NCBI GenBank assembly: GCA_026004495.1
Contig: BPJG01000001.1
Location: 70,470-134,469 of the forward strand
Reading direction: 5' to 3'
DNA from: Candidatus Parcubacteria bacterium
GTDB taxonomy: Bacteria; Patescibacteriota; Minisyncoccia; UBA6257; HR35
DNA length: 64,000 nucleotides
This document shows positions 2 through 30,073 of the stretch, piece by piece. The notes below the pieces were generated by a model. The model was not told where the DNA came from and did no database searches. It was given only the letters and a program-made list of their open reading frames with translations. Position 1 is the stretch's first letter. Every line of letters begins with the position of its first letter. A program made the position numbers and the translations under genes.

Positions 2-235
2 CTTCAAGGCTTAGCAGATGAAAGAAATGAATCAGTCAAAAAATTAATTAGTGAAGTAATTAGAAAATGTAAAGAAAAAGGAAAATATGTAGGAATTTGC
101 GGACAAGCACCAAGTGATTTTCCAGAAATTGTTGAATTATTGGTCAAAGAAGGAATTGAAAGTCTAAGTGTTAATAGCGATGTAGTGGTTAAAACGATTG
201 AAATGGTTAAAAAATTTGAAGATGAAAATAAATGA
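2..235 (+). CDS. 3' end of a PEP-utilizing enzyme (PEP synthase / pyruvate phosphate dikinase C-terminal domain), partial at the window edge
   Basis: Frame 2 translates to ...KGKYVGICGQAPSDFPEIVELLVKEGIESLSVNSDVV..., matching the conserved C-terminal PEP-binding domain (GICGQAPSD). It ends at TGA 233-235. Confidence 0.55.
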   Translation, partial: LQGLADERNESVKKLISEVIRKCKEKGKYVGICGQAPSDFPEIVELLVKEGIESLSVNSDVVVKTIEMVKKFEDENK

Positions 236-1502
236 TATAAAAGTAAATAAAATTTTAGACTCAAGAGGAGAATGGACAATTGATATTGAAATTGAAAGTG
301 AAGGAATAAAAGAAAAAGCCTCAATCCCTTCTGGAAAAAGTATTGGCTCTCATGAAGTTGTTTGTTTAGATTGTGAAAAAATTAAAAAGAACTTAGATGA
401 ATTGTTGAAAGATATAAAAAATAATGATTTTCAAAATCTAAAAGAATTAGATGAATTTTTAATTAAAAGAGCAGGGAAGAATAAAGAAAAATTAGGAGGT
501 AACTTTACTTTAGGAATTTCAATTAGTTTTGCTCGCGTTTTGGCTAAAAGCAAAAATTTGGAGTTGTTTGAATATTTAAAGAACGAATATGCTCTAATAA
601 TAGAAGATGAATTTAGACAAATACCAAGATTAATTTTAAATATTATTGGTGGTGGAGTACATTCTTTTAATAATTTAGATTTTCAGGAATATTGGTTGGT
701 GACGCAGAACTACGCTGAACTGACGCAGAACTACGCAGACAATAATAAAACGCAAACCAATGCGAACTATAAGCTAAATAACGCTAAATTTCAGGTGAAC
801 TTATCCGAAGGAGAAAATTATTATGAAACGCAAAGCGATAAGAACTTAATGCGACTCAAAGCAAATAAATATGAATTTCTTATTTTTTTAATCATAGAAA
901 TCATAAATATTATTAATCAACTTGAAAATAAACTACCTAAACCATTAGGAAGAAATGATGAAGGAGCATTTTGTACAAACTTTAGTGATGATTATGAACC
1001 ATTTTTATATTTAAAAGAAGTTAATAATTTTGAACTTGGAGCTGATATTGCCGCTAATCAAATAACAAAGGTAGTTAATTGGGAAAATGTTTATCGCAAA
1101 CTAAAAATTTTGGGTGTTAAATATTTAGAAGATCCTTATAGAGAAAATGAATTTGAAAAATTTGCTGAACTTCGAAAAGAAGGATTTAAAGTAATTGGCG
1201 ATGATTTAACAGTGACCAATATTGAAAGATTAAAAATTGCCTTAGATAAAAATTCTGTTGATGGTGTAATTGTTAAACCTAATCAAATTGGCACCATAAC
1301 TGAAGCATTTAATTTTGTTAAATTAGCCAAAACAAATAATTTATTTACAATTTTTTCTCATCGAAGTGGAGAAACTAATGATAATTGGATAATTGATTTA
1401 GGAATTGCTTTTGGAGCAGATTATTTTAAAATTGGTGTTCCTTTACAAGGCGAAAGAGTGGCAAAATATAATAGACTTTTAGAGATTTATGGTAAAATTT
1501 AA
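198..1502 (+). CDS. eno: Enolase (phosphopyruvate hydratase) carrying an in-frame repeat insertion around 700-790
   Basis: N-terminus INDIKVNKILDSRGEWTIDIEI...SIPSGKSIG. C-terminus SHRSGETND...GERVAKYNRLLEI. Internal NDEGAF matches enolase. The likely true start is ATG 222, which overlaps the upstream stop. Confidence 0.88.
   Translation: MKWLKNLKMKINDIKVNKILDSRGEWTIDIEIESEGIKEKASIPSGKSIGSHEVVCLDCEKIKKNLDELLKDIKNNDFQNLKELDEFLIKRAGKNKEKLGGNFTLGISISFARVLAKSKNLELFEYLKNEYALIIEDEFRQIPRLILNIIGGGVHSFNNLDFQEYWLVTQNYAELTQNYADNNKTQTNANYKLNNAKFQVNLSEGENYYETQSDKNLMRLKANKYEFLIFLIIEIINIINQLENKLPKPLGRNDEGAFCTNFSDDYEPFLYLKEVNNFELGADIAANQITKVVNWENVYRKLKILGVKYLEDPYRENEFEKFAELRKEGFKVIGDDLTVTNIERLKIALDKNSVDGVIVKPNQIGTITEAFNFVKLAKTNNLFTIFSHRSGETNDNWIIDLGIAFGADYFKIGVPLQGERVAKYNRLLEIYGKI
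700..790 (+). repeat. GC-rich dispersed repeat copy, in-frame inside eno (encodes TQNYAELTQNYADNNKTQTNANYKLNNAK)
   Basis: ACGCAGA-type motif repeated. The core 731-764 (CTACGCAGACAATAATAAAACGCAAACCAATGCG) matches copies at 1976-2010 and 2551-2585. Local GC is much higher than the surroundings. Confidence 0.7.
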
Positions 1503-2072: not shown

Positions 2073-3941
2073 ATGAAGATATTAATTTTAGGTGGAGGAT
2101 TTGGAGGTACTTATACTTTAAAACATTTGCATAAGTTTTTTCATAATAAGAAGAAAGTAAAATTGGTATTGGTAAATAAAAAGAATTATTTTATTTTTAC
2201 GCCTTTGCTTCATGAAGTCGCTACTGGTGGAGTTTCAATCGATAATGCTTTAGAACCTATAAGAGAAATTATTAAATGTTGCGATTTTGATTTTATCCAT
2301 GGAGAAGTTGAAAAAATTGATTTAGAAAATAAAGTTGTTTATATAAATAAAGAAAGAGAAAATTATAATGTTGATTACGATTATTTAGTTATTGCTTTAG
2401 GTTCAAAAACAAATTATTATAATATTACAGGCGCTAAAGAATTTACCTTTTCTTTAAAAACAGTTGATGATGCCATAAGGCTGAAAAATAGATTTGTTCA
2501 TATGTTTGAATTAGCGAGTGTAGCGCAGACCTGCGCAGACTACACGCAGACTAACGCAGACAATATTAAGACGCAGACTGATGCGAACTACACGCAGGCT
2601 GATGCAGGCAATAATGTAGTGCAGACTAATGCAGAAAACAACGAGAATTTTCTTTATGAAGATTTAAGCTATAAAATTATAGGAATAGCTTATAAAATTA
2701 AAAAGAATTTAGGATTGGGACATAAAGAAAAAGTTTATACGAATTCCCTTGAACTTGAACTTAAAAAAGAAAATATCATTTATAAAAGAGAGGAAAAAAT
2801 CAGCGTGGTATATGATGGAAAAATAGTAGGAAACTATATACCAGATTTTGTAATAGAGGATAAAATTATTGTGGAATTAAAAACACTCCCCTTAATAGAT
2901 GAGAAGACAAAAAAGCAAATCTGGAATTATTTAAAGGGAACTAAATATAGACTTGCAATTTTGATTAATTTTGGCAAGAAAGATGTGGAAATATCTAGGA
3001 TAATTTATGATAAAGCAAGAAATTCTAATAGTCAGCAAGAGTCTGCGTCCAGTCAGAAGGTTGATAATAATGAAAGTCTGCAAAAGTCCGCGTCCAGTCT
3101 GCAAAAGTCTGAGTCTAATAAATATTTAACTTTTGTCATTGTCGGAGGTGGAGCAACTGGAGTTGAACTTGCTGGTGAAATGAGTGATTTGTTTTATAAA
3201 ACATTTAGTAAATTATATTCATCAGATTTAATTTCACAAGTTAAAATAATTCTAATCGAAAAAGGCAAAGAATTAATTCCTCAATTTTCTCCAAAATTAA
3301 GACAAAAAGCACTTGAAAGGTTAAAAAAATTAAAAGTTGATATTAGATTGGAAAGAGGAGTAATTGAAGTTGGTGAAGATTTTATTAAACTTGATGATGG
3401 TAATGTTATCGAAACAAAAACAGTTATTTGGGCAGCAGGAGTTGAAACTAATTTACCAGAAATTATTGGCAAGGTTGAAAAGGATAATAAAGGAAGATTA
3501 GTTGTAAATGAATATCTACAAGTAAAAAAGAAAATAGATATGTTAAGTCAGCAAGAATCTGCGTTAAGTCAGCAAGAGTCTGCGTACGATAATGTTTTTG
3601 CCATTGGTGATGTTTGTTGTTTTATTCAAGACCAAAAGCCTTTGCCACAATTAGCTCAAGTTGCAGTTAGACAAGTAAAAACAGTTTCTTTAAATATTAA
3701 AAATTCGATTGAAAATAAGACTTTACAAAAATTTGCTTACAAACATACTGGTGATTTAATTTCAGTTGGTAGATTTTATGCCCTAGGAGAAATTAAAGGA
3801 GTTGAATTTTCAGGTTTAATTAGTTGGTTTATTTGGAAAGGAGTTTATTTAAGCAAAATTATTTCTTTTCGAGATCAAATCAAAACATTTATTGATTGGC
3901 TTTTGAATTTATTTTTACCCAGAGATATTACTGAATTATAA
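2073..3941 (+). CDS. ndh: Type II NADH:quinone oxidoreductase (NDH-2). It is interrupted in-frame by a ~200-aa insertion (2519-3122) and a 14-aa repeat insertion (3542-3587)
   Basis: N-terminus MKILILGGGFGGTY...FTPLLHEVATGG. Second Rossmann motif LTFVIVGGGATGVELAGE. AIGDV near the C-terminus. At 622 aa it is about 200 aa longer than a typical ~420-aa NDH-2. Confidence 0.8.
   Translation: MKILILGGGFGGTYTLKHLHKFFHNKKKVKLVLVNKKNYFIFTPLLHEVATGGVSIDNALEPIREIIKCCDFDFIHGEVEKIDLENKVVYINKERENYNVDYDYLVIALGSKTNYYNITGAKEFTFSLKTVDDAIRLKNRFVHMFELASVAQTCADYTQTNADNIKTQTDANYTQADAGNNVVQTNAENNENFLYEDLSYKIIGIAYKIKKNLGLGHKEKVYTNSLELELKKENIIYKREEKISVVYDGKIVGNYIPDFVIEDKIIVELKTLPLIDEKTKKQIWNYLKGTKYRLAILINFGKKDVEISRIIYDKARNSNSQQESASSQKVDNNESLQKSASSLQKSESNKYLTFVIVGGGATGVELAGEMSDLFYKTFSKLYSSDLISQVKIILIEKGKELIPQFSPKLRQKALERLKKLKVDIRLERGVIEVGEDFIKLDDGNVIETKTVIWAAGVETNLPEIIGKVEKDNKGRLVVNEYLQVKKKIDMLSQQESALSQQESAYDNVFAIGDVCCFIQDQKPLPQLAQVAVRQVKTVSLNIKNSIENKTLQKFAYKHTGDLISVGRFYALGEIKGVEFSGLISWFIWKGVYLSKIISFRDQIKTFIDWLLNLFLPRDITEL
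2519..3122 (+). mobile_element. In-frame insertion module: left ACGCAGAC-type repeats (2519-2645), a GxxExxY / PD-(D/E)XK-like domain (about 2649-3020), then right inverted GTCTGCGT-type repeats (3031-3116)
   Basis: The domain sequence FLYEDLSYKIIGIAYKIKKNLGLGHKEKVYTNSLELELKK...IPDFVIEDKIIVELKTL...KQIWNYLKGTKYRLAILINFG matches the GxxExxY family. The flanks are reverse complements of each other (ACGCAGAC versus GTCTGCGT). The host NDH-2 resumes exactly in frame. Confidence 0.5.
3542..3587 (+). repeat. Tandem 21/22-bp repeat (GTTAAGTCAGCAAGARTCTGCG x2) inserted in-frame in ndh, encoding LSQQESALSQQESA
   Basis: Direct tandem duplication. It contains the TCTGCG(T) motif shared with the 3031-3116 repeats. 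Confidence 0.65.
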
Positions 3942-5387: not shown

Positions 5388-5912
5388 ATGAATAAAAATT
5401 TACAAATAACTTTGGGACTTTTGCGTCTTTCATTGGGCTGGATATTTTTTTGGTCATTTTTAGATAAACTTTTTGGTTTAGGTTTTTCTACTTGCAGAAA
5501 TAGAGAAATAAATATAGTAGATTATTTTTGCCGAGATGCATGGATAAATGGTGGCTCACCAACTTTTGGCTTTTTAAAATTTGCAGTAAAGGGACCTTTT
5601 GCTGAAATTTTTAGATCAATGGCAGGTAACCCAGTTGTTGATTGGCTATTTATGTTAGGACTTTTAGGAGTTGGCTTAGGATTAATGTTAGGAATTTTTA
5701 TTAAACTTTCAACATTCTTTGGCGGATTAATGCTTGTTTTAATATATATTGCTGGCTTTATTTTGCCGGAACATAATCCATTTTTAGATGAACATTTAGT
5801 TTATACAATTTTAATGGGCTTGCTTTATCTTTCAGATTCAGGTAATTATTTAGGCTTAGGTAATTGGTGGCAAAATACAAAATTAGTTCAAAAATATAAA
5901 ATTTTAAAATAA
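5388..5912 (+). CDS. DoxX-like membrane protein (hypothetical)
   Basis: 174 aa with multiple TM helices and a LGWIFFWSFLDK motif. Confidence 0.45.
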   Translation: MNKNLQITLGLLRLSLGWIFFWSFLDKLFGLGFSTCRNREINIVDYFCRDAWINGGSPTFGFLKFAVKGPFAEIFRSMAGNPVVDWLFMLGLLGVGLGLMLGIFIKLSTFFGGLMLVLIYIAGFILPEHNPFLDEHLVYTILMGLLYLSDSGNYLGLGNWWQNTKLVQKYKILK

Positions 5913-5931
5913 ATTTTATTACCTTATTTTT

Positions 5932-6510
5932 CTAATATTTTATATGAGGGAAATTTTCAATCCTGCCTAATATTCTAACTTTTAATTTTTTAACGCCCCA
6001 TTTTATAGCTTCATCTACGTTATCAAAATAAACATCAATCTTGTTTCCTTTAACTGCACTGCCAGTATCTAATGCTATGGCATAACCATAATCTGGAATT
6101 TCTAAAACAGTTCCTAATGGAATAATCTCAGGATCGACTGCAACAGTACCCTTTAATGCAGGTAACCCAGAATAAGTAATACCATAATCTTTTCTACCAG
6201 GCATCTTACCCGTAGACTCAGGCCCAGAGGTATAAGCAGTCGCTACTACTTCTAAGGTTTTTAAATATTCAATATTTTTTTGTGAATTTTCTATTATTTC
6301 TTCTAGATCTTTTTTAACTTTCTCATACATTAATTGTTTTTCTTTTAATTCTTTTTCTTTTTCTTCAATTTCTTGCCTAAGATTAGATATTTCTTTGTTA
6401 TCTTTTATAGTTTTTAAACCAAATAAAACAGCTAAAGTCATAAAAAAAGATTTCTTTAAAAAGTCTCTTCTAGAAATTTTTTTATCAAAAAATTTAGGAG
6501 TCTTTTCCAT
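5932..6510 (-). CDS. 3D-domain (MltA-like) cell-wall binding protein with an N-terminal membrane anchor and a coiled coil
   Basis: C-terminus ATAYTSGPESTGKMPG...GTVAVDP.IIPLGT...ALDTGSAVKGNKIDVYF matches the 3D domain. Confidence 0.7.
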   Translation of the reverse strand: MEKTPKFFDKKISRRDFLKKSFFMTLAVLFGLKTIKDNKEISNLRQEIEEKEKELKEKQLMYEKVKKDLEEIIENSQKNIEYLKTLEVVATAYTSGPESTGKMPGRKDYGITYSGLPALKGTVAVDPEIIPLGTVLEIPDYGYAIALDTGSAVKGNKIDVYFDNVDEAIKWGVKKLKVRILGRIENFPHIKY

Positions 6511-6552
6511 TTTTATATAAAATTATAATTATATCAAAAAAAATTATAAATT

Positions 6553-7227
6553 ATGTCAAAGCTTAAAAAAAAGATTTTTCAAATTATTAAAAAAATTCCA
6601 TCTGGTCAATTTTTGACATATAAACAAGTTGCGATATTAGCTCATAATGAAAAAGCTTTTAGAGCGGTTGGCAATATTTTAAAATATAAGGCTAAATTAG
6701 GGAAACAATTTATAAATATTCCTTGTCATCGAGTAATTAAAGGTGATTATACTGTTGGTGGATACTTGGGTAGAAAAGATTTAAATTGGTTAAAAGCAGC
6801 TTTACTTTTAAGAGAAGGAGCAATCGGAGTTATTCCAACTGATACAATTTATGGCATTTGTACATCTGCTTTTAATAAAAAGTCTGTTGAAAAAATTTAT
6901 AAATTAAGAAAAAGAAATCCTAAAAAGCCTTGTATAATTTTGATTTCTAACTTAAACGATTTAAAGCTTTTTAAGGTTCAGCTTGAAAATTGGCAAAAAT
7001 ATATTTTAAAGAAAATTTGGCCAAGTAGAATAAGCGTCATTTTGTCTTGTAAATCGAAGAAATTTTCTTATCTTCATCGCGGAACAGAAACTTTAGCCCT
7101 TAGATTACCCAAAGATAAATTTATACTAAAAATTTTAAAAATTTCAGGACCATTAATTGCTCCATCAGCAAATTGGGAAGGGCATGAATCAGCAAAAACA
7201 ATAAATAAAGCAAAAAAAATATTTTAA
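6553..7227 (+). CDS. Fusion protein: MGMT-like DNA-binding domain (PCHRV motif) plus a YrdC/TsaC threonylcarbamoyl-AMP synthase domain. The C-terminus is frameshifted, and the tail continues in the +1 frame to TAG 7370-7372
   Basis: NIPCHRVIKGDYTVGGY (Ogt C-terminal signature) and GVIPTDTIYGIC...KKPCIILISN (YrdC). Downstream, the +1 frame encodes NHVFYLDRGKLISDPSNLIDLTHKEIKIIRKGADNDKLDKFL, which is the canonical YrdC C-terminus. An A8 run lies at 7212-7219. Confidence 0.7.
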   Translation: MSKLKKKIFQIIKKIPSGQFLTYKQVAILAHNEKAFRAVGNILKYKAKLGKQFINIPCHRVIKGDYTVGGYLGRKDLNWLKAALLLREGAIGVIPTDTIYGICTSAFNKKSVEKIYKLRKRNPKKPCIILISNLNDLKLFKVQLENWQKYILKKIWPSRISVILSCKSKKFSYLHRGTETLALRLPKDKFILKILKISGPLIAPSANWEGHESAKTINKAKKIF

Positions 7228-8044
7228 TAACCATGTATTTTATTTAGATAGAGGAAAACTAATTAGTGACCCCTCAAATTTAATCGATTTAACTCACAAA
7301 GAAATAAAAATCATAAGAAAGGGAGCTGATAATGATAAATTAGATAAATTTTTAAATTATAAATTAGTATAGACAGAATAACCCTGGGTATCATTTCTAC
7401 ATAGACATACCTTAAAGTTTATATCAATCTGTGATATATATTTTTTAGGTTTTTTGTTTTTAAATCTTGGAATTATTTTAATTAAAAAAGTTAAAATATA
7501 AAAATTCATAATTTCATTAGATTATTAAAATTATATCTATCAACATTATTAGGTGATTTATTAGAAACGTAATATTTTAATAAACTTAGTAACTAAAATT
7601 ATAATAGTAAGCTGTTGGAAGCAGATTATAAAAATTTATTTTAATAAAGATAAAATGTTTTTTTATGTACTATTTATAATATGTATATAAAGAAAGTCAA
7701 AGATAATTTTAATCCCTCAAGTTTGAGAAAATAGAAATTAGCCCTTAATAAAAGCATAGAAAAAATAAAACCAGAACATAGATCTTTTTGACTATATTAG
7801 AACATTTAAAAATTACATCATTAAAAGTATAATTATCTTATAAAATTAACCTTTCTTTAGTAATTATTTGATAGTCTTAAAGCTTCTATTGTATTAGTTT
7901 TATATTTTTTTACTTTTTTTAATATAAGAAATATTAAAATATCATTAAAAAAGGGGAATTCATAAAAATGAAACCAAAAGATAAAAGTTAAAATAAAATC
8001 AGAATTTTAGTTCAATGAAAATTTATAATAAAAAAAATTAATTT

Positions 8045-8182
8045 TTAAGATTCATCATTATTATCCTTATCTTTATCACATTTACAACATTCTGGACATT
8101 TATTGCATAAATCACATATATCTTTTTGTAATTTATAACATACCTTACAGAAATTAGATCTCTTTAATTTTTCTTCTTCCAT
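8045..8182 (-). CDS. Possible small Cys-rich (multi-CxxC) protein, 45 aa
   Basis: Manual translation of the minus strand gives MEEEKLKRSNFCKVCYKLQKDICDLCNKCPECCKCDKDKDNNDES. It was not in the ORF track because it is too short. Confidence 0.25.
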   Translation of the reverse strand: MEEEKLKRSNFCKVCYKLQKDICDLCNKCPECCKCDKDKDNNDES

Positions 8183-8231
8183 TAAATTATTTAAATATTA
8201 TAAAGAATTAATTATCGACCTAAAAATTTAT

Positions 8232-9650
8232 CTATTTAAATATTTTTGACCAATCAAAGTTCCACGGATCATCTTTTCTATCAGTAGCTATATCTTTATG
8301 ACCTAAAATGTATTTTATCTGATAGCGAGATTTAATATCATTAATTAATTCATTTAAAGCTTGATATTGTAATTCGTTAGGTGATTCATTTTTATGATAT
8401 ATTAACTCAATTCCTATTGAATATAAATTTACATTGGTTCTATTATCGGGCAATTTACTTTTACCAGCATGATAAGCAATTTTATCTTCAGATAATAATT
8501 TATATATGTTGCCCTGTCTATCAATTAAATAATGAGCTAAAACTTCATAATTTTTGTAAATATTAATAATTTTATTTACATTATAGTGATCTTTATCTAA
8601 TGAATTATAAGAAGAATGAATAATTATCGTGTCTATAAATCTTCGGTGATCATATTTAAATCCCCAATTTATATTTGCGGTTAAATTTTTTATTTTAATT
8701 TTACTATTTTCTTTAATTTCGCTCTTTACACTTTTTTCATTATTTTTATTAATAAATTTATTGATTTCTGAAATAAACTTAAGGGGATCAATAGAAATAT
8801 TATTAACTTTAATAGAAAAATGTAAATGGGGACCCAAAGAATAACCAGTATTACCTACCTCCCCAATTTTCTGACCTTTATTTACAATTTCATTTTCGTT
8901 AACAAAAAATTTATTTAAGTGCAGGTATAAAGAATAAATTCCTCCACCATGATCTATGATTATGGTTTTTCCATAATTAATTAAATCTTTTGCCAGGACA
9001 ACCTTACCATTATTAACTGCATAAATCAAATCTCCGATTTTACCATCTAAATCAACACCTAAATGTTGGACCTCATTTTTACCGCTTTTCCTTATATTCC
9101 CGTAATCTCCAACAATTATAATTTTATCTAATGGATAAATAAATTCTTCATTAAAATAAAGCTGAGTTGTAAATTTATTAACCTTATTTTCAATAATTTC
9201 ATTTTCATTTTTTAGATTATTAATTATATTAGGGATAGTGAATCCCTTTTTTTCTAATGAAGGAGTTGTTTTAAGCTGGGTTATGGGAAAAATTCTTTTT
9301 TTAATTCTAATTATCTTTTCAATTTTTTTACCATTATTAAATTCAATAGTTAATTTATATTTTCCTCCTTCTTCTTTGGGATCTATGCCTATAAAACTAA
9401 CGAATTCACCATTTTTTAAATTAACAAAGTTAATCTGATTATTTTTAAAATAAGAATTAGTTATCTTTAAACCATTATTAAGAACTAATTTAACCATCAT
9501 AACATCTCCAGAATAGAAATTTTCTTTATTAATTTCAAGAGAATAGTTTTGAGCAAAAGTTAAATTAAATAAAATAAATAAAAATAATATCACTAAGGTA
9601 ATTGTCCTTTTTAAAATAATTATTCCTTTAAACTTACTATAGCATTTCAT
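8232..9650 (-). CDS. Peptidoglycan hydrolase: M23 metallopeptidase domain plus an N-acetylmuramoyl-L-alanine amidase (Amidase_2) domain, with a signal anchor
   Basis: HLGVDLDG...GNTGYSLGPHLHF (M23). IIIHSS...AYHAG...SIGIELI..LGHKDI (Amidase_2). Confidence 0.78.
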   Translation of the reverse strand: MKCYSKFKGIIILKRTITLVILFLFILFNLTFAQNYSLEINKENFYSGDVMMVKLVLNNGLKITNSYFKNNQINFVNLKNGEFVSFIGIDPKEEGGKYKLTIEFNNGKKIEKIIRIKKRIFPITQLKTTPSLEKKGFTIPNIINNLKNENEIIENKVNKFTTQLYFNEEFIYPLDKIIIVGDYGNIRKSGKNEVQHLGVDLDGKIGDLIYAVNNGKVVLAKDLINYGKTIIIDHGGGIYSLYLHLNKFFVNENEIVNKGQKIGEVGNTGYSLGPHLHFSIKVNNISIDPLKFISEINKFINKNNEKSVKSEIKENSKIKIKNLTANINWGFKYDHRRFIDTIIIHSSYNSLDKDHYNVNKIINIYKNYEVLAHYLIDRQGNIYKLLSEDKIAYHAGKSKLPDNRTNVNLYSIGIELIYHKNESPNELQYQALNELINDIKSRYQIKYILGHKDIATDRKDDPWNFDWSKIFK

Positions 9651-9694
9651 TTTAATTAATTTTAAATTAAATTAAATGAATTTAAAAACTTAAT

Positions 9695-10339
9695 TTAACG
9701 ACAAATTTTTTTAAAATATTCTTTTAATTCTTGTGGTATATTCTGGCATAATTTATAGCAATAAACCTTACCCTTAAATTCACTTAATTTTTTATCATAT
9801 TCAAATAAATCCAAAAACTTATTGTAGCGATAATAATTTACCCTACAAAAATCTTTACTGCTATTATAAGCAAAATAACTTGCTTGATAAATAGCCCCTT
9901 CTTCTGGTAATAACTTAATAAAAAATCCATATTTTCCACCTCCTCCTGTTCCCTGTGATAAAACTAATTTCTTAATTTCACCATTTTCAGTTTTAAAATT
10001 TAAAATTTCTACATTATTATAGATTTTTAAAATATTATTAAAAAAAGATTTTTTGGTTATAAGAATATAATTATCAATAGCAACCCCTCCAAATCCTAAG
10101 CTTACTAAAGCTTCTTTAATACCATCTCGGGTTAAATCAATTTCACTTTCTATTTTTAAATTATCTAAACCTTCTTCTGTTATTTTATTGACAATAATTA
10201 ATTTCCTAATTTTCGGGATTAATTTTTCATAAGGCAATTCAATTCTTATTATAATTATTAAATAAATAATAATAAAGATAATTAATAGAAAAAGTAATCT
10301 AAAAATATATTTAAATTTAATTTTATTAAATAGATTCAT
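9695..10339 (-). CDS. Hypothetical membrane-anchored protein
   Basis: ORF of 214 aa with an N-terminal TM segment and no recognisable domain. Confidence 0.35.
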   Translation of the reverse strand: MNLFNKIKFKYIFRLLFLLIIFIIIYLIIIIRIELPYEKLIPKIRKLIIVNKITEEGLDNLKIESEIDLTRDGIKEALVSLGFGGVAIDNYILITKKSFFNNILKIYNNVEILNFKTENGEIKKLVLSQGTGGGGKYGFFIKLLPEEGAIYQASYFAYNSSKDFCRVNYYRYNKFLDLFEYDKKLSEFKGKVYCYKLCQNIPQELKEYFKKICR

Positions 10340-10985
10340 AATATTATTATAATCTTCAACTTATAGTTTAAAATCAGAAATTAATTAACCAAAACTTAAT
10401 TTAAAATTATAATTACTAAAAATATGAATAGAAAAATTAAGATATATAAAAATAAAAAACAAGCTAAAGGAAGAATATTATTTTTTCAAATTAAAAAATA
10501 TGAAAATACTTATAATCTCTTAAAATTAATGAAAAAAATACATTTTAGTTAGACTAAAAAATATTAAATAAAATACCTTAAGGATTTATAATTTGCAAAA
10601 AAATGAATAACCGGGAGTAAATGATATTTATTATTTAGAAAATAATTTATTTAGGGTTATTGATAAAATAGATAAAAAAACATAAAAAATATAATTTACA
10701 TTATTCAGTTATACTCCCCATACTTTTAATCATCAACATTTTAGCTTTAAAAATTTTAAAATAATATTTATAATAAGTTATTTATAACTAACAAAAACCT
10801 AAAAGAATTAAATATAGAGACATTGTTTTTATTATGATGCTAGAATTTATAAAAAATAATCATTATATAGTAATAATATATAGTTTTAATTTATATAAAT
10901 ATTGGATATGTAAATATTAGAAAAATTAAAATAACAAATAACCTTATTTAAATAAATCTTAGATTTAATTTAAAATTTATTTAAA

Positions 10986-12674
10986 ATGATAGAATTGCCA
11001 TTTATATTCAAATTATCAATATTATTTTTAATCTCCTTTATTTTAGGTTTTTTATTTAATTTAATAAAACAACCTTTAATAATCGCCTATATTATATCTG
11101 GAATTATAGCCGGAAATTATTTAATTGATTCTTTAGAAACTAAAAATATTTTAAGCATATTTTCAGAAATCGGTGTAGCTTTAATGCTTTTTATTGTTGG
11201 CTTAGAGTTAAAACTAAAAGTTATTAAGGATATTGGAAAAAATGTTGCAATCATAGCTATCTTGCAAGAACTATCAGTAATTATTTTGGGTTTTGTGATA
11301 TCCTTAATTTTAGGTTTTAACCATATAGAATCTCTTTATATAGGAATTGCCCTTTCTTTTAGTAGTACAATTATTATTATTAAATTACTTTCTGATAAGG
11401 GCGATTTAGAAAAATTTTATGGTAAATTAGCTATTGGTTTTTTAATTATCCAAGATATAATATCAATAATTTTAATATTATTAATTCCATTTTTTTCCCT
11501 TAATAAAAATTTTATAAACCTAGAAAACAATTTATTAATTATTAGTTTTGTAATATTATTAATATTTTTTACGGTTCGTTATTTAATTCCTAAATTAGAA
11601 AATTTAATTACCAAAACAAATGAATTGCTATTTATTTTCTCATTCTCCTTTGTTTTATTATTATCTTCATTATTTAAATTAGTGGGAATAGGATTAGAAA
11701 TTGGAGCTTTGATAGCTGGACTAATATTAGCTAATTATCAATTTAGTTCAGAAATTAATTTTAAGTTGAGGCCAATAAAAAATTTTTTCTTAATAATATT
11801 TTTTATATATTTAGGTTTAAATATTAAATTTCCTCAAATAGAAAATGAATTGTTTAAAATCTTAACATTTTCCTTTTTTATTTTGATAATTCAACCAATA
11901 ATCAGTTTTTTCTTATTAAAATTACTTAAAATAGGTAATAGGCAAGCTTTTAAATTTAGTTTGATTTCGGCACAAATAAGTGAATTCTCTTTTATTATTA
12001 TCGGTCTTGGAAATAAATTAGGTCAAATAGAAAATAATTTATTCTCAACAATTTCTTTTATCGGAATTATAACTATATTTCTTTCAATTTATATGTTTTA
12101 TTATTCAGACAAAATATACAATTTAATTTTTAAAAAAATATTAAAAATAAAAGATAGGGTTAATATTGATGAAGAAATAAAAAATAAAAATTTTAATATA
12201 CTTCTTATTGGTTGTGATAGAACAGGTTATAGTTTCTTACTAAGTATTAAGGAAAATAAAGAAAAGATTTTAATAATAGAAAATAATTATCAAAAAGTTT
12301 TAGAATTAAAAAAAATAAATTATAATGTTATCTATGGTGATATAGATGAATTTGAATTGTTAGATGAAATAAATCTTAAGCAGTTTAAAATAATAATTTC
12401 TACAATACCTGATTTTGAAACAAATTTAATACTATTAAGAAGATATAAAAAAGACAATCCCAAAGGAATATTTATTTGTAATTCTAATAAATTTAAAGAT
12501 AATTTAGAATTATACAAAAATGGAGCAAGTTTTGTTAACTTACCCCATTCTTTGGGAGGAGAAAAAATAGCTGATTTAGTTAATAATTTTGGTTTTGAAA
12601 TAGATGAATATGAAGCTATTAAAAAAGAAAATTTTGAAAAGATATATAAAATAATTAATTATTTAAAAATTTAA
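10986..12674 (+). CDS. Monovalent cation:proton antiporter (CPA2, Kef-type) with a C-terminal RCK/TrkA-N domain
   Basis: About 12 TM helices, followed by NILLIGCDRTGYSFLL, a Rossmann-like RCK motif. Confidence 0.75.
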   Translation: MIELPFIFKLSILFLISFILGFLFNLIKQPLIIAYIISGIIAGNYLIDSLETKNILSIFSEIGVALMLFIVGLELKLKVIKDIGKNVAIIAILQELSVIILGFVISLILGFNHIESLYIGIALSFSSTIIIIKLLSDKGDLEKFYGKLAIGFLIIQDIISIILILLIPFFSLNKNFINLENNLLIISFVILLIFFTVRYLIPKLENLITKTNELLFIFSFSFVLLLSSLFKLVGIGLEIGALIAGLILANYQFSSEINFKLRPIKNFFLIIFFIYLGLNIKFPQIENELFKILTFSFFILIIQPIISFFLLKLLKIGNRQAFKFSLISAQISEFSFIIIGLGNKLGQIENNLFSTISFIGIITIFLSIYMFYYSDKIYNLIFKKILKIKDRVNIDEEIKNKNFNILLIGCDRTGYSFLLSIKENKEKILIIENNYQKVLELKKINYNVIYGDIDEFELLDEINLKQFKIIISTIPDFETNLILLRRYKKDNPKGIFICNSNKFKDNLELYKNGASFVNLPHSLGGEKIADLVNNFGFEIDEYEAIKKENFEKIYKIINYLKI

Positions 12675-12684
12675 TAAATAAAAA

Positions 12685-14100
12685 ATGAATGAAGGTTTAA
12701 CCTTTGACGATGTTCTTTTAATTCCTAAAGTGTCAAAAATTAATTCAAGAAAAGATATTGATTTATCAATAAAACTTCACTCTAAAATAAATTTAAATCT
12801 ACCTATTATATCCTCACCAATGGATACTGTTACTGAATCTGAAATGTCTATTTCGATGGCAAGAAATGGAGGCCTGGGTATAATTCATAGATTTTGTTCT
12901 ATTGAAGAACAAGTAAAACAAGTAAAAAGAGTAAAAAGAGCAGAGAATTATTTAATTGAAAATCCTATTTGCATTTCTCCTCAAGCTACCCTAAAAGAGA
13001 TAAAAAATAAATCGATAGAATATGATTTTGAAACTTTTTTAGTTGTCGATGAAAATAAAAAACTTTTAGGATTAATTTCTAAACGAGATTATTTCTTAGA
13101 AGAAAATGAAAACAAAAAAGCATTTCAATTAATGACTCCTTTTGAAAAATTAATTGTTAGTTATAAGAAAATATCCTTAGCTGAAGCTAAAAATATTTTT
13201 AGAAAGTATAAGATTGAAAAAATACCAATAATTGATAAAAATAGAAAAATTGTTGGATTAATTACTTTTAGAGACTTTAAAAATTCTTTAAATAAAAAAG
13301 CAAGTCGCGATAAAAATGGTAAATTATTAGTTGGAGCAGCAATTGGAATAAGAGGAGATTATTTAGAACGAGCTAAAGAATTAGTAAGGGCAGGAGTTGA
13401 TATTTTATGTATTGATGTAGCTCATGGACATTTAGAAAAATCAATTAAAACCATAAAAGAAATTAAAAAATATTTTCCCGATATTCCATTAATTGCCGGA
13501 AATATAGCAACAACTGAGGGAGCTAAAGATTTGATAAAAGCAGGAGCAGATATCATTAAAGTTGGCATAGGTCCAGGAAGTGCTTGTACTACAAGAATTA
13601 TAGCAGGAGTTGGAGTCCCTCAATTATCAGCTATTATTAAAGCTAAAAGTGGATCTAAAAATATACCAATTATTGCTGATGGAGGTTGTCGCAATTCTGG
13701 TGATATAGTTAAAGCTTTAGCTGCAGGAGCAAGTGCAGTTATGTTAGGTTCATTATTGGCAGGAACAGATGAATCTCCAGGAGAAATTTTTTATCTTAAA
13801 AATAAAAGAGTTAAGGCTTTTAGAGGAATGTCTTCAGCTGAAGCTTATAAAAACAAATTAAAATCTACTAATGATAACCCAGAATATGAACCAATATCAG
13901 AAGGAATAAATTATGGTTTTATTGAATACAAAGGTTCAGTTAAAGAAGTTTTAACTAATTTAGAAAAGGGAATTAGATCTGGTTTTTCATATTGTGGAGC
14001 AATAAATATTAAAGAATTATGGCAAAGAGCTGAATTTATTAAAATTTCTGATAAAGGATACAAGGAAAGCTTACCTCATACTATTAATTTTCTTGATTAA
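12685..14100 (+). CDS. guaB: IMP dehydrogenase
   Basis: [20 protein letters not shown], a CBS pair, and [11 protein letters not shown] for the catalytic Cys loop. Confidence 0.9.
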
Positions 14101-23427: not shown

Positions 23428-23580
23428 ATGAGAGCCGTTCGAGTTGAAGAGCTAGAAATAATTTGTCACGAAGTAAGGCGCCGGATGTTCCAAACCATCC
23501 TCAATGCGGGAAGCGGTCATCTCTGTAGTTCGTCTTCCTCTGTGGAATGCATTTTTAGAAGTCTACAGAAATTTATAAAT
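23428..23580 (+). pseudogene. Transketolase / DXP-synthase N-terminal fragment (~45 aa of homology) behind a strong AAGGAGGT SD, then degenerate
   Basis: MRAVRVEELEIICHEVRRRMFQTILNAGSGHLCSSSSSVECIF resembles the SGHxGxSLSxxEI motif of transketolase N-termini. The ORF stops after 76 aa. Confidence 0.4.
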
Positions 23581-23893
23581 CTATATGTCTTCTGTTTAAT
23601 TTGTTTTGGTAATGTAAAATCCCATTCAGAATCTATACCCGGAGAACTGAAAGTATAAAGAAGTGATAGTCTGCTGTTTATAGAACTAGTAATTTCAAGA
23701 AGATGAGATAGAGTCATCCCATATCCGATAGAAGCAGAAACTGGTTTCTGGCTATTGTAATTGATCCCAAAAAGAAGTATTCTGCTGTCGATAAATTGTG
23801 TGGTAGTAAAATTGCTTCCGTGTATATTCTTTTGCCTACCCAGTTTTGTAGATGCCTCTCGACAAAAAATATATCAACGGCTAAAATTTATTG

Positions 23894-24723
23894 CTAAATT
23901 GAATAAAGCTCGTTGGCAATTGATGAAACCTTTTCATTTGGGTTTTTTATTTTGTGTAAAAACTCCTTGAAAACACCTCGCGCATTTGACTGATTGATTT
24001 CTAAATTTTTTAAGTAAGGGTATATTGCATTAAAAATACTAAGAAATTCTGAGTCAAACATTTGATCTATAACGCGGTCGCTCATGTTTGTACCAATTCA
24101 ATTATATCTCTCAAATGACCATTCGTCGTCTAGTTTTTCTAATGAGTCAGCAACCATGGCTTTTGCACCTGGAGGCGAAAATTTTTTTCATTTAGTTGCT
24201 TTACAGCTGGATCTTTGAATAACGGGTTAGGATAATTTAATGATTTTTCTCCGTTATGTTTAACGATAAATCTTTTCTCCTTGTAGATATCAAAGACCGA
24301 ACGAACGAATTCCTGATACAATTTGTTGTTTGTATTGAAGTAATTGTCGTAATCACAGCTTATCTGAATACTTTTCAAATCTTTCAGAATTACATCGCTA
24401 AAATAATTCAGAACGCTTATTGGTTCAGTAAATTTATACAAGTGACTTTTCGGGATCTTATAAAAATTGAAAATAAGATCTAATGTTCTTTGATCTGTAT
24501 CATTTAGTTTTCGTTTTTGTAGAAAATTTGATACTGCATTGGCAATTTTAAAAACGGTAGAACCGCTATAATGCATGCAAATTGGGAATCGAACAGAAAA
24601 TCCCTGTTTTCGTTTCCATCTAGCCCAAACGTCAGCCAATACAAAAATCCTTGCATGACTTAAACTCAGCGGGCACACCGGATGCATGTGAGCAATATCA
24701 ATAAAATATTTTTTATCTTCCAT
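23894..24723 (-). pseudogene. N-terminal fragment of a class I aminoacyl-tRNA synthetase (MetRS-like), split by a frameshift/stop near 24086-24139, with a degenerate HIGH motif
   Basis: LADVWARWKRKQGFSVRFPICMHYSGST matches MetRS ADVWVRYQRMRGHEVNF. CDYDNYFNTNNKLYQEFVRSVFDIYKEKRFI matches MetRS YDNYHSTHSEEN...GFI. Only ~260 aa are present, against more than 500 expected. GC is higher than the surroundings. Confidence 0.5.
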
Positions 24724-24726
24724 AGC

Positions 24727-25412: not shown

Positions 25413-26177
25413 TTAAAAATCAATAAATTTAAAAAGGAAAGGGAAAGATGGTGATCCAAGAAATATAGAAGTGCGTAAGTCCTCAAATCGCACCCCTTTT
25501 TCATTACTTTGAATGATTAACTTATATTTTTTGAGGTTCCAATAAGTCTTTATAAAGTTTCTTATTGCTTCTCGTCTGATTTGTTCTATAATCTTTTCAT
25601 AATAATTATCTAGAAATAATTTCTTAAAATAAAATAAAGCGTAAAGATTATCAAGAAAATAATCTCGAGGATCATCCATAACCAAATTGTTTCTATTAAT
25701 CAAATATTTTTTAATTAACTTAATTTCTTCAACTTCAGGTAGAATTTTTATTTCATTAAAAATAATATTTAAAATCTCCCTAATATTTTTTAGATCACTG
25801 CTAAATTCTATATAAACATAACCAAAATTATTGCCAGCTAGATAAGATCCAGAATAAACATCATAAATCAGACCATTTTCTTGTCTTAAAATTTTAAATA
25901 ATCTACTATTTTGCGGACCAGCTAATGTATTTAAAATAACCCCTTGTAAAATTGAATTCTCAACCCCAGTTTTTCTACTAATAGAAGGAATAATTAGACT
26001 AACACTTATGGTTTTTAGGTTGTGGTTGTGATTAAAAGCAAAATTTTTATTAAACCAATCTTTAGAATTAATGTGGATATCAATAGCTTTGGGATTTTTC
26101 TCAATATTATCAAATTGTTTATTCAATATATTTTTTAATTTATTAATCTTAAAGCCCCCTGTTATTGCTAAAATCAA
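25413..26177 (-). pseudogene. C-terminal (inactive-domain) half of an M16 family peptidase. It starts at TTG and the N-terminal catalytic half is absent
   Basis: ILNTLAGPQNSRLFKILRQENGLIYDVYSGSY..GNNFGYVYIEFSSDLKNIREI matches the M16 C-terminal domain consensus (GGGMSSRLFQELRE..GLAYSVYS). Confidence 0.45.
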
Positions 26178-26497
26178 TTGACTTCTCGAAATAATCTAAT
26201 ACAGTTACTACTGTCCCTTCTTTCGCCATCAAGGAAGATTCGTAACCTCCGCCACAACCGCATTCTATGCATTTTAAATTTATAAAATTTCCTATTATCG
26301 ATTTATAGTGATTATTTAATGCTTCGTTACAATAAAAATCCCATTTATCATTAATTTCAAATATATCGCCATGTTTTTTATAATAATTTAATCATTTTTT
26401 CCCAGTGATTATCCCAAAAGCGTCTTTCATCTAAAGCAAAGTCTTTTCGATGAAAAAATAATAAATCTATTATTTTTGTTAGCCATCTGTTAATCAT
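26170..26497 (-). pseudogene. Frameshifted N-terminal fragment of a class I SAM-dependent methyltransferase
   Basis: Two frames together read MINRWLTKIIDLLFFHRKDFALDERRFWDNHWEK... and ...CIECGCGGGYESSLMAKEGTVVTVLDYFEKSI (motif I), then terminate. Confidence 0.4.
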
Positions 26498-26860
26498 TTT
26501 TTTATTAATCTTTTTATTATTTTTAGGGGCCTAAAATTTCTACTTATTTCTTCAAAATTTTTTTTACATATATCTCTATTATCTTTTGGGTAGTTACAAA
26601 GATAAATATCTAAAGTAAGGTAATTCAATTCAGGCCAAGTATGAATAGTAATGTGAGATTCAACCAAGCTAATCGGATCAGTGAAACCACCAGCAGAAAA
26701 TTTATAATAAAAGGATCCTAATTCGTGTATATTATATTTTTTAACAATGTTGTGAATGTATTTTTTCGTTTGATTTAAAGATTTCAGTTCTTCAACTTCT
26801 TTTGTGGTAATTTCTCCTAATATATGAAGTCTGGTAAATGGTCCGTTCTTGTTTTATTCA
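26494..26860 (-). pseudogene. Second S-adenosylmethionine decarboxylase (speH-type) copy with a 1-nt frameshift near its 5' end
   Basis: LVESHITIHTWPELNYLTLDIYLCNYP carries the AdoMetDC signature. The ATG at 26858-26860 is in the +1 frame relative to the body (MNKTRTDHLPDFIY* versus NGPFTRLHILGEITTKE). Confidence 0.5.
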
Positions 26861-29890: not shown

Positions 29891-30073
29891 TACCCACACT
29901 TTTCTTTGATTATTTTTATTTTTTTGGATTTAGTTCCTACTTCTAAATTATCATAATCTTCTATAAGTTTTATATTATGGTAAATGAAATGTTTATCACA
30001 CATTAGCTTTAAAACCTCTTCTTTTAAAAAGTTCCTTTCATCTTGGATTAATCAAATATTATTTTATAGGTCC

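What the first reader, a model, noticed from the sequence alone, without database searches (positions are those of the whole stretch)
7205..7372. Frameshift in an A8 tract truncates an unusual MGMT-DBD / YrdC(TsaC) fusion gene
ORF 6553-7227 ends ...AKTINKAKKIF*. The +1 frame immediately continues with NHVFYLDRGKLISDPSNLIDLTHKEIKIIRKGADNDKLDKFLNYKLV*, which is the conserved YrdC C-terminus (ending at 7372). The switch is at AAAAAAAA (7212-7219). This is either a homopolymer sequencing error or slippage-prone pseudogenisation of the essential t6A enzyme. Separately, the N-terminal fusion of an O6-alkylguanine-transferase-like DNA-binding domain (active-site PCHRV retained) to TsaC is a notable architecture.
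Basis: partly seen in the sequence, partly recalled or inferred. Interest (0 to 1): 0.55.

Follow-up and report, generated by a model that had tools for sequence, protein, structure and literature searches.

The report
Frameshifted tsaC fusion gene, probably real
One extra A in a run of As breaks the gene for a tRNA-modification enzyme (TsaC, fused to a DNA-repair domain) in a tiny hot-spring bacterium; it looks like a real recent mutation rather than a sequencing slip, and the fusion is normal for this group.

Summary
ORF 6553-7227 stops three codons after an A8 tract (7212-7219). The +1 frame then carries the rest of the YrdC/TsaC domain to 7372. Removing one A gives a 272-aa protein, not 273, with Pfam PF01035 plus a complete PF01300. 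Relatives have A6 or A7 here, always in frame, encoding AKKYF, so the lesion is A7 plus one A.

The 224-aa product lacks two core strands and the threonine-binding Ser241 and Arg255, so it cannot be an active TsaC.

The source is MAG KatS3mg094 (Paceibacteria, family HR35), assembled from PacBio HiFi reads only at 21.6x. An independent k-mer (Logan) assembly of run DRR290133 gives the same A8. Of the 52 A/T runs of 8 or more inside ORFs, this is the only one that breaks a gene. The window also holds a cdaA nonsense codon and multi-frame pseudogenes.

I favour a genuine, very recent insertion (about 0.6) over a consensus error (about 0.2). Reads were not available to settle it. Nothing suggests programmed recoding.

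The MGMT-TsaC fusion is real and catalytically intact, but common in this clade: all of the 120 best database hits carry both domains, as do 36 of the 80 best species-level loci.

The parts
6553..7372 (+). Whole tsaC fusion gene (MGMT/Ogt C-terminal domain plus YrdC/TsaC domain), interrupted by a +1 frameshift. It is 272 codons if one A is removed.
   Evidence: It is 78/75/71% identical to the full-length homologs P0002, P0005 and P0003.
6553..7227 (+). ORF as encoded (224 aa). This is GenBank GIW65554.1, KatS3mg094_073, annotated 'hypothetical protein'.
6565..6819 (+). O6-alkylguanine alkyltransferase C-terminal (DNA-binding/active-site) domain, aa 5-89. There is no N-terminal Ogt domain.
   Evidence: Pfam PF01035 at 65 bits. 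TIGR00589 at 51.1 bits against a cut-off of 46.4. Foldseek hits to hAGT, Ada-C and Atl1.
6721..6735 (+). PCHRV active-site motif, with Cys58 at 6724-6726.
   Evidence: BLASTP against human MGMT aligns C58 with C145, Y23 with Y114, R37 with R128 and Y71 with Y158. C58, R60 and V61 are invariant and H59 nearly invariant in 62 family members.
6805..7324 (+). YrdC/TsaC catalytic domain (aa 85-257 of the frame-corrected protein), split by the frameshift.
   Evidence: Pfam PF01300 2-178/178. Foldseek to Pa-Sua5 6f89 and Tm TsaC2 9dsv, rmsd about 2 A.
7212..7219 (+). A8 tract, the frameshift site. Relatives have GCA AAA AAA TAT (A7), GCT AAA AAA TAT (A6) or interrupted versions, all encoding A-K-K-Y-F.
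7225..7227 (+). Premature TAA stop in the 0 frame.
7220..7372 (+). The +1-frame continuation (aa 223-272 plus TAG). It has no ATG, GTG or TTG codon, so it cannot be translated on its own. It carries Ser241 (7274-7276) and Arg255 (7316-7318).
   Evidence: The phmmer alignment to 6f89 maps S241 to S181 and R255 to R195. These residues H-bond L-threonine and HCO3- in Pa-Sua5 (PMC6004061; PMC10321239).
7333..7395 (-). Remnant of the convergent DUF72 gene that overlaps the tsaC 3' end in relatives. Only about 21 codons survive, with an internal stop.
   Evidence: tblastn with the L005 DUF72 protein, E = 0.26, at the syntenic position. Synteny shown.

Best explanation
This is the tsaC gene (L-threonylcarbamoyl-AMP synthase, first step of tRNA t6A37 synthesis) of a Paceibacteria bacterium (family HR35, MAG KatS3mg094). 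It has the form typical of that clade. An ~85-aa Ogt/MGMT alkyltransferase domain with its catalytic Cys is fused directly onto the YrdC domain, and the last MGMT helix serves as the first YrdC helix.

In this genome the A7 tract encoding Lys-Lys in the conserved AKKYF motif has gained one A. I take this to be a real and evolutionarily very recent replication-slippage mutation in the dominant genotype.

The encoded 224-aa product keeps the alkyltransferase domain. It loses half a helix, two core beta-strands, the C-terminal helix and the substrate-binding Ser241 and Arg255. It therefore cannot make TC-AMP.

Full-length enzyme could arise only from rare, unprogrammed events. One is a +1 P-site slip of tRNA-Lys from AAA(7216-18) to AAA(7217-19). 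The other is an RNA polymerase slip giving A7 or A10 in the mRNA. The allele is thus null or strongly hypomorphic. It sits in a genome that is visibly accumulating inactivating mutations.

Shown here: the lesion, what it removes, its uniqueness among relatives, and agreement between two assemblies. Inferred: that the reads truly carry A8, that the mutation is recent, and that any rescue is weak.
For: Lesion and loss. establish the frameshift. Relatives carry A6/A7 in frame and never A8. S241 and R255 map to Pa-Sua5 S181 and R195, which bind threonine and bicarbonate and are required for activity. The AlphaFold model (pLDDT 94.5, pTM 0.91) puts strands 241-245 and 252-255 and helix 260-271 after the break.

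Real rather than artefact. An independent Logan de Bruijn assembly of run DRR290133 matches the window over 8,072 bp with no mismatch, including the A8. Logan discards 31-mers seen only once. The MAG coverage is 21.6x. Of 64 A/T runs of 8 or more, 52 lie inside ORFs and only this one breaks a gene. No A7 or A10 version of the protein exists among about 15 billion proteins.

Genome context of decay. cdaA carries an in-frame TAA splitting its DAC domain (profile 2-94, then 97-118), and the Logan assembly shows the same. A PPDK-like gene lies in three frames. The neighbouring DUF72 gene is reduced to a remnant. tsaC is dispensable in part of the CPR.

Weak hints of relaxed constraint downstream. 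N242 replaces a Thr/Ser found in 119 of 119 homologs. Singleton residues are 4/40 downstream against 8/222 upstream.
Against: The assembly is HiFi-only (metaFlye 2.8.3, no short-read polishing), and homopolymer indels are the typical residual HiFi error. The Logan assembly uses the same reads, so a read-level systematic bias would be shared.

The 50 downstream codons are intact, and all 15 strongly conserved downstream columns are kept. That is what an artefact would look like. The singleton test is not significant (p = 0.09).

All other relatives retrieved (120 protein clusters, 80 loci) have an intact gene. I could not see the other 570 kb of the genome to check for a second Sua5/TsaC copy or for tsaD/B/E.
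Confidence: 0.6

Rival explanations
1. Homopolymer consensus or sequencing error. The organism really has A7 and an intact 272-aa TsaC fusion, and the extra A is a PacBio HiFi/assembly artefact.
For: The assembly is HiFi-only with no short-read polishing, at 21.6x coverage. The break lies exactly in a long homopolymer. Removing one A recreates the family-consensus AKKYF exactly. The downstream frame is perfectly preserved. One error per 64 kb is within the range I would expect for such assemblies (my own knowledge).
Against: Two assemblers with unrelated algorithms agree on A8 and on all 22 runs of 7 or more in the shared 8 kb. Logan keeps only k-mers seen at least twice. The other 51 long runs inside ORFs are in frame. 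A majority of about 21 accurate reads being wrong at an 8-mer is unlikely (inference). The same assembly shows a non-indel disruption, the cdaA nonsense codon, so real lesions do occur here.
Confidence: 0.2
2. Population polymorphism. Both A7 (functional) and A8 (broken) alleles coexist in the hot-spring population. The consensus shows the commoner A8, while function persists in A7 cells.
For: A7/A8 tracts are replication-slippage hot spots. The gene shows no further decay. Metagenome consensus hides minority alleles.
Against: The Logan contig runs unbranched through the site for 8 kb. No intact version of the protein is in any assembly in the collection. There is no direct evidence for a second allele.
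Confidence: 0.12
3. Programmed recoding. The A8 tract is a designed +1 ribosomal frameshift or transcriptional slippage site that regulates the ratio of a short (alkyltransferase-only) product to a long (TsaC-active) product.
For: tRNA-Lys can re-pair perfectly one base downstream on A8. Loss of t6A raises +1 frameshifting in yeast and human cells.
Against: The site is not conserved. All relatives are in frame with A7 or shorter, and no hit is truncated at aa 222. There is no Shine-Dalgarno-like element near the site, and the 0-frame stop is two codons away. The next codon, ATA, is common at 43.6 per 1000. The downstream RNA has no unusual structure (z = -0.72). At 8 nt the run is below the roughly 9-nt hybrid length, and runs of 9 or more are strongly depleted here (7 seen, about 45 expected). 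E. coli RNA polymerase gave no deletion-type slippage on poly(A) runs of up to 8 (PMC6260861). The genome carries 44 sense-strand A8+ runs inside ORFs, so slippage at A8 must be rare.
Confidence: 0.03

Closest known systems
TsaC / YrdC (E. coli TsaC, PDB 1HRU/2MX1; NCBIfam TIGR00057)
   Same: Single YrdC-fold catalytic domain without a SUA5 domain. The SxN motif and the Thr/Ser/Arg substrate-binding residues are present in the corrected sequence. It scores above the equivalog cut-off.
   Different: It carries an N-terminal alkyltransferase domain in place of the first ~12 profile positions. The K of the KxR motif is Arg (R119-K-R121). The gene is frameshifted here.
Sua5 / TsaC2 (P. abyssi 6F87/6F89, T. 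maritima 9DSQ, S. tokodaii 3AJE)
   Same: Best structural and sequence matches to the catalytic domain (E = 1e-16, rmsd about 2 A, 27-30% identity).
   Different: It has no C-terminal SUA5 domain or gating linker. The protein ends about 15 residues after the YrdC domain.
O6-alkylguanine-DNA alkyltransferase (human MGMT, E. coli Ogt/Ada-C)
   Same: C-terminal domain fold, PCHRV cysteine, Tyr114, the Arg128 finger and Tyr158 equivalents are all conserved across the fusion family.
   Different: It lacks the N-terminal Ogt domain and is fused without a linker to TsaC. Activity has not been tested.
Alkyltransferase-like (ATL) proteins (S. pombe Atl1, 3GVA)
   Same: Stand-alone-sized version of the MGMT C-terminal domain. 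Foldseek TM-score normalised to the target is 0.66-0.72.
   Different: ATLs lack the acceptor cysteine; this domain keeps it.
Frameshifts in poly(A) tracts of AT-rich reduced genomes (Buchnera and Blochmannia, proposed transcriptional-slippage rescue) and the Oenothera atpB oligo-A insertion corrected by ribosomal frameshifting (PMC8254509)
   Same: Single-A insertion in an oligo-A run of an important gene in a small, AT-rich genome, with the downstream frame intact.
   Different: The tract is only 8 nt and needs a -1 or +2 correction. Genome-wide data in E. coli and Buchnera show mostly +1 insertions at such runs and no frame-restoring events (PMC5574713). No RNA or protein data exist here.
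prfB (RF2) programmed +1 frameshift
   Same: A +1 shift is required, and the gene product could in principle influence shifting at its own site.
   Different: There is no conserved shift site, no upstream SD stimulator and no stop codon in the A site.

Membership tests
TsaC/YrdC L-threonylcarbamoyladenylate synthase (TIGR00057, PF01300) | Full-length match above the curated cut-off | tested here: met
   The frame-corrected protein scores 145.6 bits against a cut-off of 123.2 for TIGR00057 and covers PF01300 2-178/178. The ORF as encoded covers only 2-141/178.
TsaC/YrdC L-threonylcarbamoyladenylate synthase (TIGR00057, PF01300) | ATP-binding motifs KxR and SxN | tested here: inconclusive
   SxN is present as S205-A-N207. 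The KxR position reads R119-K-R121, with Arg in place of Lys, throughout this family.
TsaC/YrdC L-threonylcarbamoyladenylate synthase (TIGR00057, PF01300) | Threonine/bicarbonate-binding Ser181 and Arg195 (Pa-Sua5 numbering) in the translated product | tested here: not met
   S241 and R255 exist only in the +1 frame, after the break. The 224-aa product lacks them. They are present if one A is removed.
TsaC/YrdC L-threonylcarbamoyladenylate synthase (TIGR00057, PF01300) | TC-AMP synthesis activity / t6A in tRNA | not testable with these tools
   Needs an enzyme assay or tRNA LC-MS.
Sua5 (TsaC2) | C-terminal SUA5 domain | tested here: not met
   There is no such Pfam hit, and the protein ends at aa 272.
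MGMT/Ogt alkyltransferase (PF01035, TIGR00589) | C-terminal domain above cut-off with the PCHRV acceptor cysteine, Arg finger and Tyr114 | tested here: met
   65 bits against 27, and 51.1 against 46.4. C58, R37 and Y23 align to C145, R128 and Y114 and are invariant in the family.
MGMT/Ogt alkyltransferase (PF01035, TIGR00589) | N-terminal Ogt/MGMT domain | tested here: not met
   The domain starts at aa 5, and there is no N-terminal-domain Pfam hit.
Alkyltransferase-like (ATL) proteins | Active-site Cys replaced (Trp/Ala) | tested here: not met
   Cys58 is retained and invariant.
Programmed +1 ribosomal frameshift (prfB type) | Shift site conserved in orthologs, with a stimulatory SD and a slow or stop codon in the A site | tested here: not met
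   Relatives are in frame with A7 or shorter. There is no SD near the site, the next codon ATA is common, and there is no RNA structure.
Programmed transcriptional slippage (T. thermophilus dnaX, IS elements) | A/T run of about 9 or more, conserved in orthologs | tested here: not met
   The run is 8 nt and unique to this genome.
Sequencing/assembly homopolymer artefact | Run length not supported by the majority of reads | not testable with these tools
The indirect test, an independent Logan assembly of run DRR290133, agrees with A8.

The most novel reading that the evidence does not exclude
The frameshift is genuine and is buffered by an accidental feedback loop. The shift site consists of AAA Lys codons read by tRNA-Lys(UUU), one of the ANN-decoding tRNAs that carry the very t6A37 modification TsaC initiates. 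When t6A falls, hypomodified tRNA-Lys slips +1 on A-AAA-AAA-A more often. That restores the tsaC frame and raises TsaC, giving a prfB-like homeostat that makes the mutation tolerable.

Literature support is partial. Loss of t6A raises +1 frameshifting in yeast, and at AUU in human cells. However, no +1 shifting was seen at AAA in the human reporter.
Probability: 0.06. Interest if true: 0.7.

Novelty: new member of a known kind. Interest (0 to 1): 0.3.

Why it matters
If the insertion is real, this is a CPR bacterium caught just after disabling the first enzyme of the near-universal t6A pathway. Together with the cdaA nonsense codon and several decaying genes in the same 64 kb, it points to ongoing gene loss in a 0.63-Mb genome.

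It is also a practical warning. HiFi-only MAGs of AT-rich organisms need read-level checks at A7/A8 tracts before a missing tsaC is scored as a biological loss.

Separately, the alkyltransferase-TsaC fusion is conserved in at least 120 protein clusters (90% identity). Its catalytic Cys is invariant among the 62 members aligned, and AlphaFold predicts a rigid two-domain architecture. It is an uncharacterised partner for a well-studied tRNA-modification enzyme and may merit a biochemical look. Does it repair DNA? Does it bind tRNA? Or does it couple alkylation damage to t6A synthesis?

Tried and rejected
(1) Relaxed-selection test on the downstream segment. Singleton residues are 4/40 downstream against 8/222 upstream, Fisher p = 0.09, and the window deviates at none of the 15 strongly conserved downstream columns (0/15). 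This is suggestive only.

(2) Window-wide scan for other frame switches. Most hits were ordinary adjacent genes. One other true break was found (the PPDK-like gene), and no other homopolymer break in an otherwise intact gene.

(3) Search for recoding signals. No SD element, no rare codon and no RNA structure were found. A -1 shift on A_AAA_AAA leads into a frame with early stops.

(4) Looking for an intact allele. The exact A7 and A10 proteins are absent from the 15-billion-protein collection.

(5) GTDB genome scan. The source genome itself is not in that collection, so I could not test for a second tsaC/sua5 copy or for tsaD/B/E. None of these is in the window.

(6) The afdb50 fold library was unavailable.

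(7) Four literature searches for an MGMT/Ogt-TsaC/Sua5 fusion found nothing relevant.

(8) A separate MGMT gene next to tsaC in unfused relatives, as a possible origin of the fusion. A motif search found none within 2.5 kb (crude regex).

Full report
OBSERVATION. The window reads GCAAAAAAAATAT at 7210-7222, with the A8 tract at 7212-7219. ORF 6553-7227 encodes 224 aa ending ...AKTINKAKKIF*. The frame one base downstream is open from 7205 to the TAG at 7370-7372. It reads ...KKYFNNHVFYLDRGKLISDPSNLIDLTHKEIKIIRKGADNDKLDKFLNYKLV*, and the third frame is full of stops. The open stretch contains no ATG, GTG or TTG, so it cannot be a separate gene. Deleting one A gives a 272-aa protein, and adding two gives 273 aa. 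With the extension, the Pfam YrdC match grows from profile positions 2-141/178 (114 bits) to 2-178/178 (137 bits). The protein also passes the NCBIfam TsaC equivalog cut-off, 145.6 against 123.2 bits.

WHAT THE GENE IS. The protein has two domains. Residues 5-89 form an O6-alkylguanine alkyltransferase C-terminal domain (PF01035 at 65 bits; TIGR00589 above its cut-off). Residues 85-257 form a YrdC/TsaC domain. In a 62-member family alignment, C58, R60, V61, Y23, R37 and E88 are invariant. An AlphaFold model built on that alignment is very confident (pLDDT 94.5, pTM 0.91). The last MGMT helix (75-87) runs straight into the first YrdC strand (92-95) without a linker. Foldseek matches the YrdC part to P. 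abyssi Sua5 and T. maritima TsaC2 (rmsd about 2 A over about 196 columns). It matches the N-terminal part to human AGT, Ada-C and the ATL protein Atl1. No solved chain contains both parts. There is no SUA5 domain, so this is a TsaC-type rather than a Sua5-type enzyme.

THE LESION. The three closest relatives for which I fetched DNA encode A-K-K-Y-F-N-N at this point. Their codons are GCA AAA AAA TAT (A7), GCT AAA AAA TAT (A6) or GCA AAG AAA TAT. Across 86 fetched loci the run is A6 (29 loci), A7 (11) or shorter. It is never A8 and always in frame. The window is therefore A7 plus one A. The phmmer alignment to Pa-Sua5 (6f89) maps S205-A-N207 to the SxN motif, which lies upstream of the break. 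It maps S241 to Ser181 and R255 to Arg195, both downstream. In Pa-Sua5 these two residues H-bond L-threonine, and Arg195 also holds bicarbonate (PMC6004061). They are reported as required for TC-AMP synthesis (PMC10321239, citing Wan 2013). The model shows that the break also removes half of helix 217-227, strands 241-245 and 252-255, and helix 260-271. The 224-aa product can therefore keep an alkyltransferase domain but cannot be an active TsaC.

REAL OR ARTEFACT. The ORF is GIW65554.1 (KatS3mg094_073) from a Candidatus Parcubacteria MAG. The source paper used PacBio Sequel II HiFi reads only (above Q20), assembled with metaFlye 2.8.3 and no short-read polishing (PMC9671151). Its Table S3 lists KatS3mg094 with 21.6x coverage and one linear contig of 634,165 bp. 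It has 623 CDS, 25.6% GC and the GTDB placement Patescibacteria; Paceibacteria; UBA6257; HR35. Homopolymer indels are the main residual HiFi error, so an artefact is a serious rival.

Four things argue against an artefact:
- A Logan contig assembled independently from run DRR290133 equals window 5867-13938 with zero mismatches over 8,072 bp, including the A8. The method is a 31-mer de Bruijn graph that discards k-mers seen once and applies Minia3 simplification (PMC12424806).
- Of the window's 64 A/T runs of 8 or more, 52 lie inside ORFs of at least 80 aa, and only this one breaks a gene.
- Neither the A7 nor the A10 version of the protein exists among about 15 billion proteins.
- The same genome carries lesions that are not indels (next paragraph).

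Two things favour an artefact. The downstream 50 codons are undamaged, and all 15 strongly conserved downstream columns are kept. There are weak hints of relaxed constraint. N242 replaces a Thr/Ser present in 119 of 119 homologs. Singleton residues are 4/40 downstream against 8/222 upstream, but p = 0.09. My estimates are: real insertion in the dominant genotype about 0.6, a mixed A7/A8 population about 0.12, and an artefact about 0.2. Only read counts can decide.

CONTEXT. The window contains other disrupted genes:
- cdaA (37491-36847, minus strand) ends at an in-frame TAA that splits its DAC domain (profile 2-94 before, 97-118 after). The Logan assembly has the same stop.
- A pyruvate-phosphate-dikinase-like gene lies in three frames at about 29005-29889. 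It has PPDK_N 117-224 and 287-315 and a PEP-utilizers domain, and the first ~116 profile positions are missing.
- The DUF72 gene that overlaps the tsaC 3' end in relatives is reduced to about 21 codons at 7333-7395. It is followed by about 850 nt of non-coding DNA.
- There is also an N-terminally truncated M16 peptidase and a fragmented class-I synthetase-like gene.

This genome is therefore losing genes, which raises the prior for a real tsaC lesion. A recent survey lists tsaC among genes only 10-90% conserved in CPR bacteria (PMC12641178).

COULD IT STILL BE EXPRESSED? Restoring the frame needs an mRNA with A7 or A10, or a +1 ribosomal shift. A P-site slip of tRNA-Lys from AAA(7216-18) to AAA(7217-19) re-pairs perfectly and would give exactly AKKYF. 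A -1 shift enters a frame with early stops. Nothing suggests design:
- The site is not conserved.
- There is no Shine-Dalgarno-like element nearby.
- The next codon, ATA, is common (43.6 per 1000).
- The downstream RNA is unstructured (z = -0.72).

Transcriptional slippage at A/T runs gives mainly +1 insertions and rises with run length. No frame-restoring events were seen in E. coli or Buchnera (PMC5574713). E. coli RNA polymerase gave no deletion-type rescue on poly(A) runs of up to 8 (PMC6260861). The window holds 44 sense-strand A8+ runs inside ORFs. Runs of 9 or more are sharply depleted, with 7 observed against about 45 extrapolated. This suggests that 8 is the longest run the cell tolerates precisely because it slips little. 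Any rescue is therefore likely to be low-level and unprogrammed.

One speculative twist remains. The shift codons are read by a t6A-dependent tRNA, and t6A loss raises +1 frameshifting in yeast and at AUU in human cells. However, it did not do so at AAA in the human reporter.

THE FUSION. All 120 best hits of 1,878 (E <= 1e-10) carry both Pfam domains. Among GTDB species representatives, 334 loci encode a relative. Of the best 80, 36 match from residue 19 or earlier, meaning they are fused. The other 44 match only from about residue 71-88 onward, meaning TsaC alone. Nearly all (78 of the 80) are Patescibacteria-type MAGs or unclassified bins. The exceptions are one 3.5-kb contig labelled Aenigmatarchaeota (L039) and about nine bins auto-labelled 'uncultured Gammaproteobacteria'. 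I suspect these are mislabelled or mis-binned but did not check. The architecture is thus a conserved clade trait with intact catalytic residues. It is not a peculiarity of this gene. I found no paper that mentions it. Its function is open. It could be independent DNA repair, nucleic-acid binding that helps TsaC, or coupling of alkylation damage to t6A synthesis.

VERDICT. The fusion is genuine but ordinary for the lineage. The kind of event is well known, so novelty is low. Interest is modest at 0.3. It comes mostly from the undescribed fusion and from the pseudogene-rich context.

Noticed in passing
window 36844-37491 (-), stop codon at 36844-36846: cdaA (c-di-AMP synthase) is cut by an in-frame TAA inside the DAC domain ('GTRHRSAIGLS*SSDALIIIISEETG'; Pfam DAC 2-94 before, 97-118 after). 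The frame stays open into the YbbR/CdaR part. The Logan assembly of DRR290133 has the same stop.
   Followed up: partly
window ~29005-30051 (-): Pyruvate-phosphate-dikinase/PpsA-like pseudogene in three frames: PPDK_N 117-224 at 29889-29473, PPDK_N 287-315 at 29491-29318, and PEP-utilizers at 29265-29005. One junction sits at a C6T6 run, there are in-frame TGA stops, and the first ~116 profile positions are missing.
   Followed up: partly
window 7333-7395 (-) and 7373-8231: Only the last ~21 codons of the convergent DUF72 gene survive (it is 249-265 aa in relatives and overlaps the tsaC 3' end). They are followed by about 850 nt of AT-rich non-coding DNA. KatS3mg096 also keeps only a 63-aa DUF72 fragment.
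   Followed up: partly
window 23520-24726 (-): A class-I aminoacyl-tRNA-synthetase-like ORF (195 aa, weak tRNA-synt_1g hit) is followed by open pieces in other frames within a 950-nt 'gap'. This is probably another multi-frame pseudogene.
   Followed up: partly
window 25413-26391 (-): A Peptidase_M16_C-only ORF lacks the catalytic N-terminal M16 domain. It is preceded by an 80-aa SAM-methyltransferase-like fragment.
   Followed up: no
window 2073-3941 (+), insertion about 2661-2999: The NDH-2-type NADH dehydrogenase (622 aa) carries an in-frame PD-(D/E)XK nuclease domain (PDDEXK_3, E = 1.6e-32) at aa 197-309, inside Pyr_redox_2. The homolog in KatS3mg096 is 467 aa.
   Followed up: no
whole window: A/T homopolymer lengths fall geometrically up to 8 (674, 347, 132, 57 for lengths 5-8) and then collapse. 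Seven runs of 9 and none longer are seen, against about 45 runs of 9 or more extrapolated. This is consistent with selection against slippage-prone tracts.
   Followed up: partly
homologs P0032, P0035, P0037, P0039-P0050 and others: Many members of the fusion family carry 20-90-aa low-complexity insertions (for example RIKRPNILPESSDR...) between 'SVILS' and 'YLHRGT' of the YrdC domain.
   Followed up: no
window 63057-63656 (-): DOT1-like methyltransferase domain (PF08123, E = 4e-21) in a Patescibacteria genome.
   Followed up: no
window 198-1502 (+): Enolase in which about 165 residues between Enolase_N (aa 11-127) and the matched part of Enolase_C (aa 295-431, profile 138-278) have no Pfam match.
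   Followed up: no
window 8045-8182 (-): A 45-aa Cys-rich ORF (CKVCYKLQKDICDLCNKCPECCKCDKD) with no Pfam match. It is also called as a gene on the Logan contig.
   Followed up: no
window 26497-26853 (-) and 56385-56753 (-): Two separate small S-adenosylmethionine decarboxylase (AdoMet_dc) genes lie in one 64-kb window.
   Followed up: no
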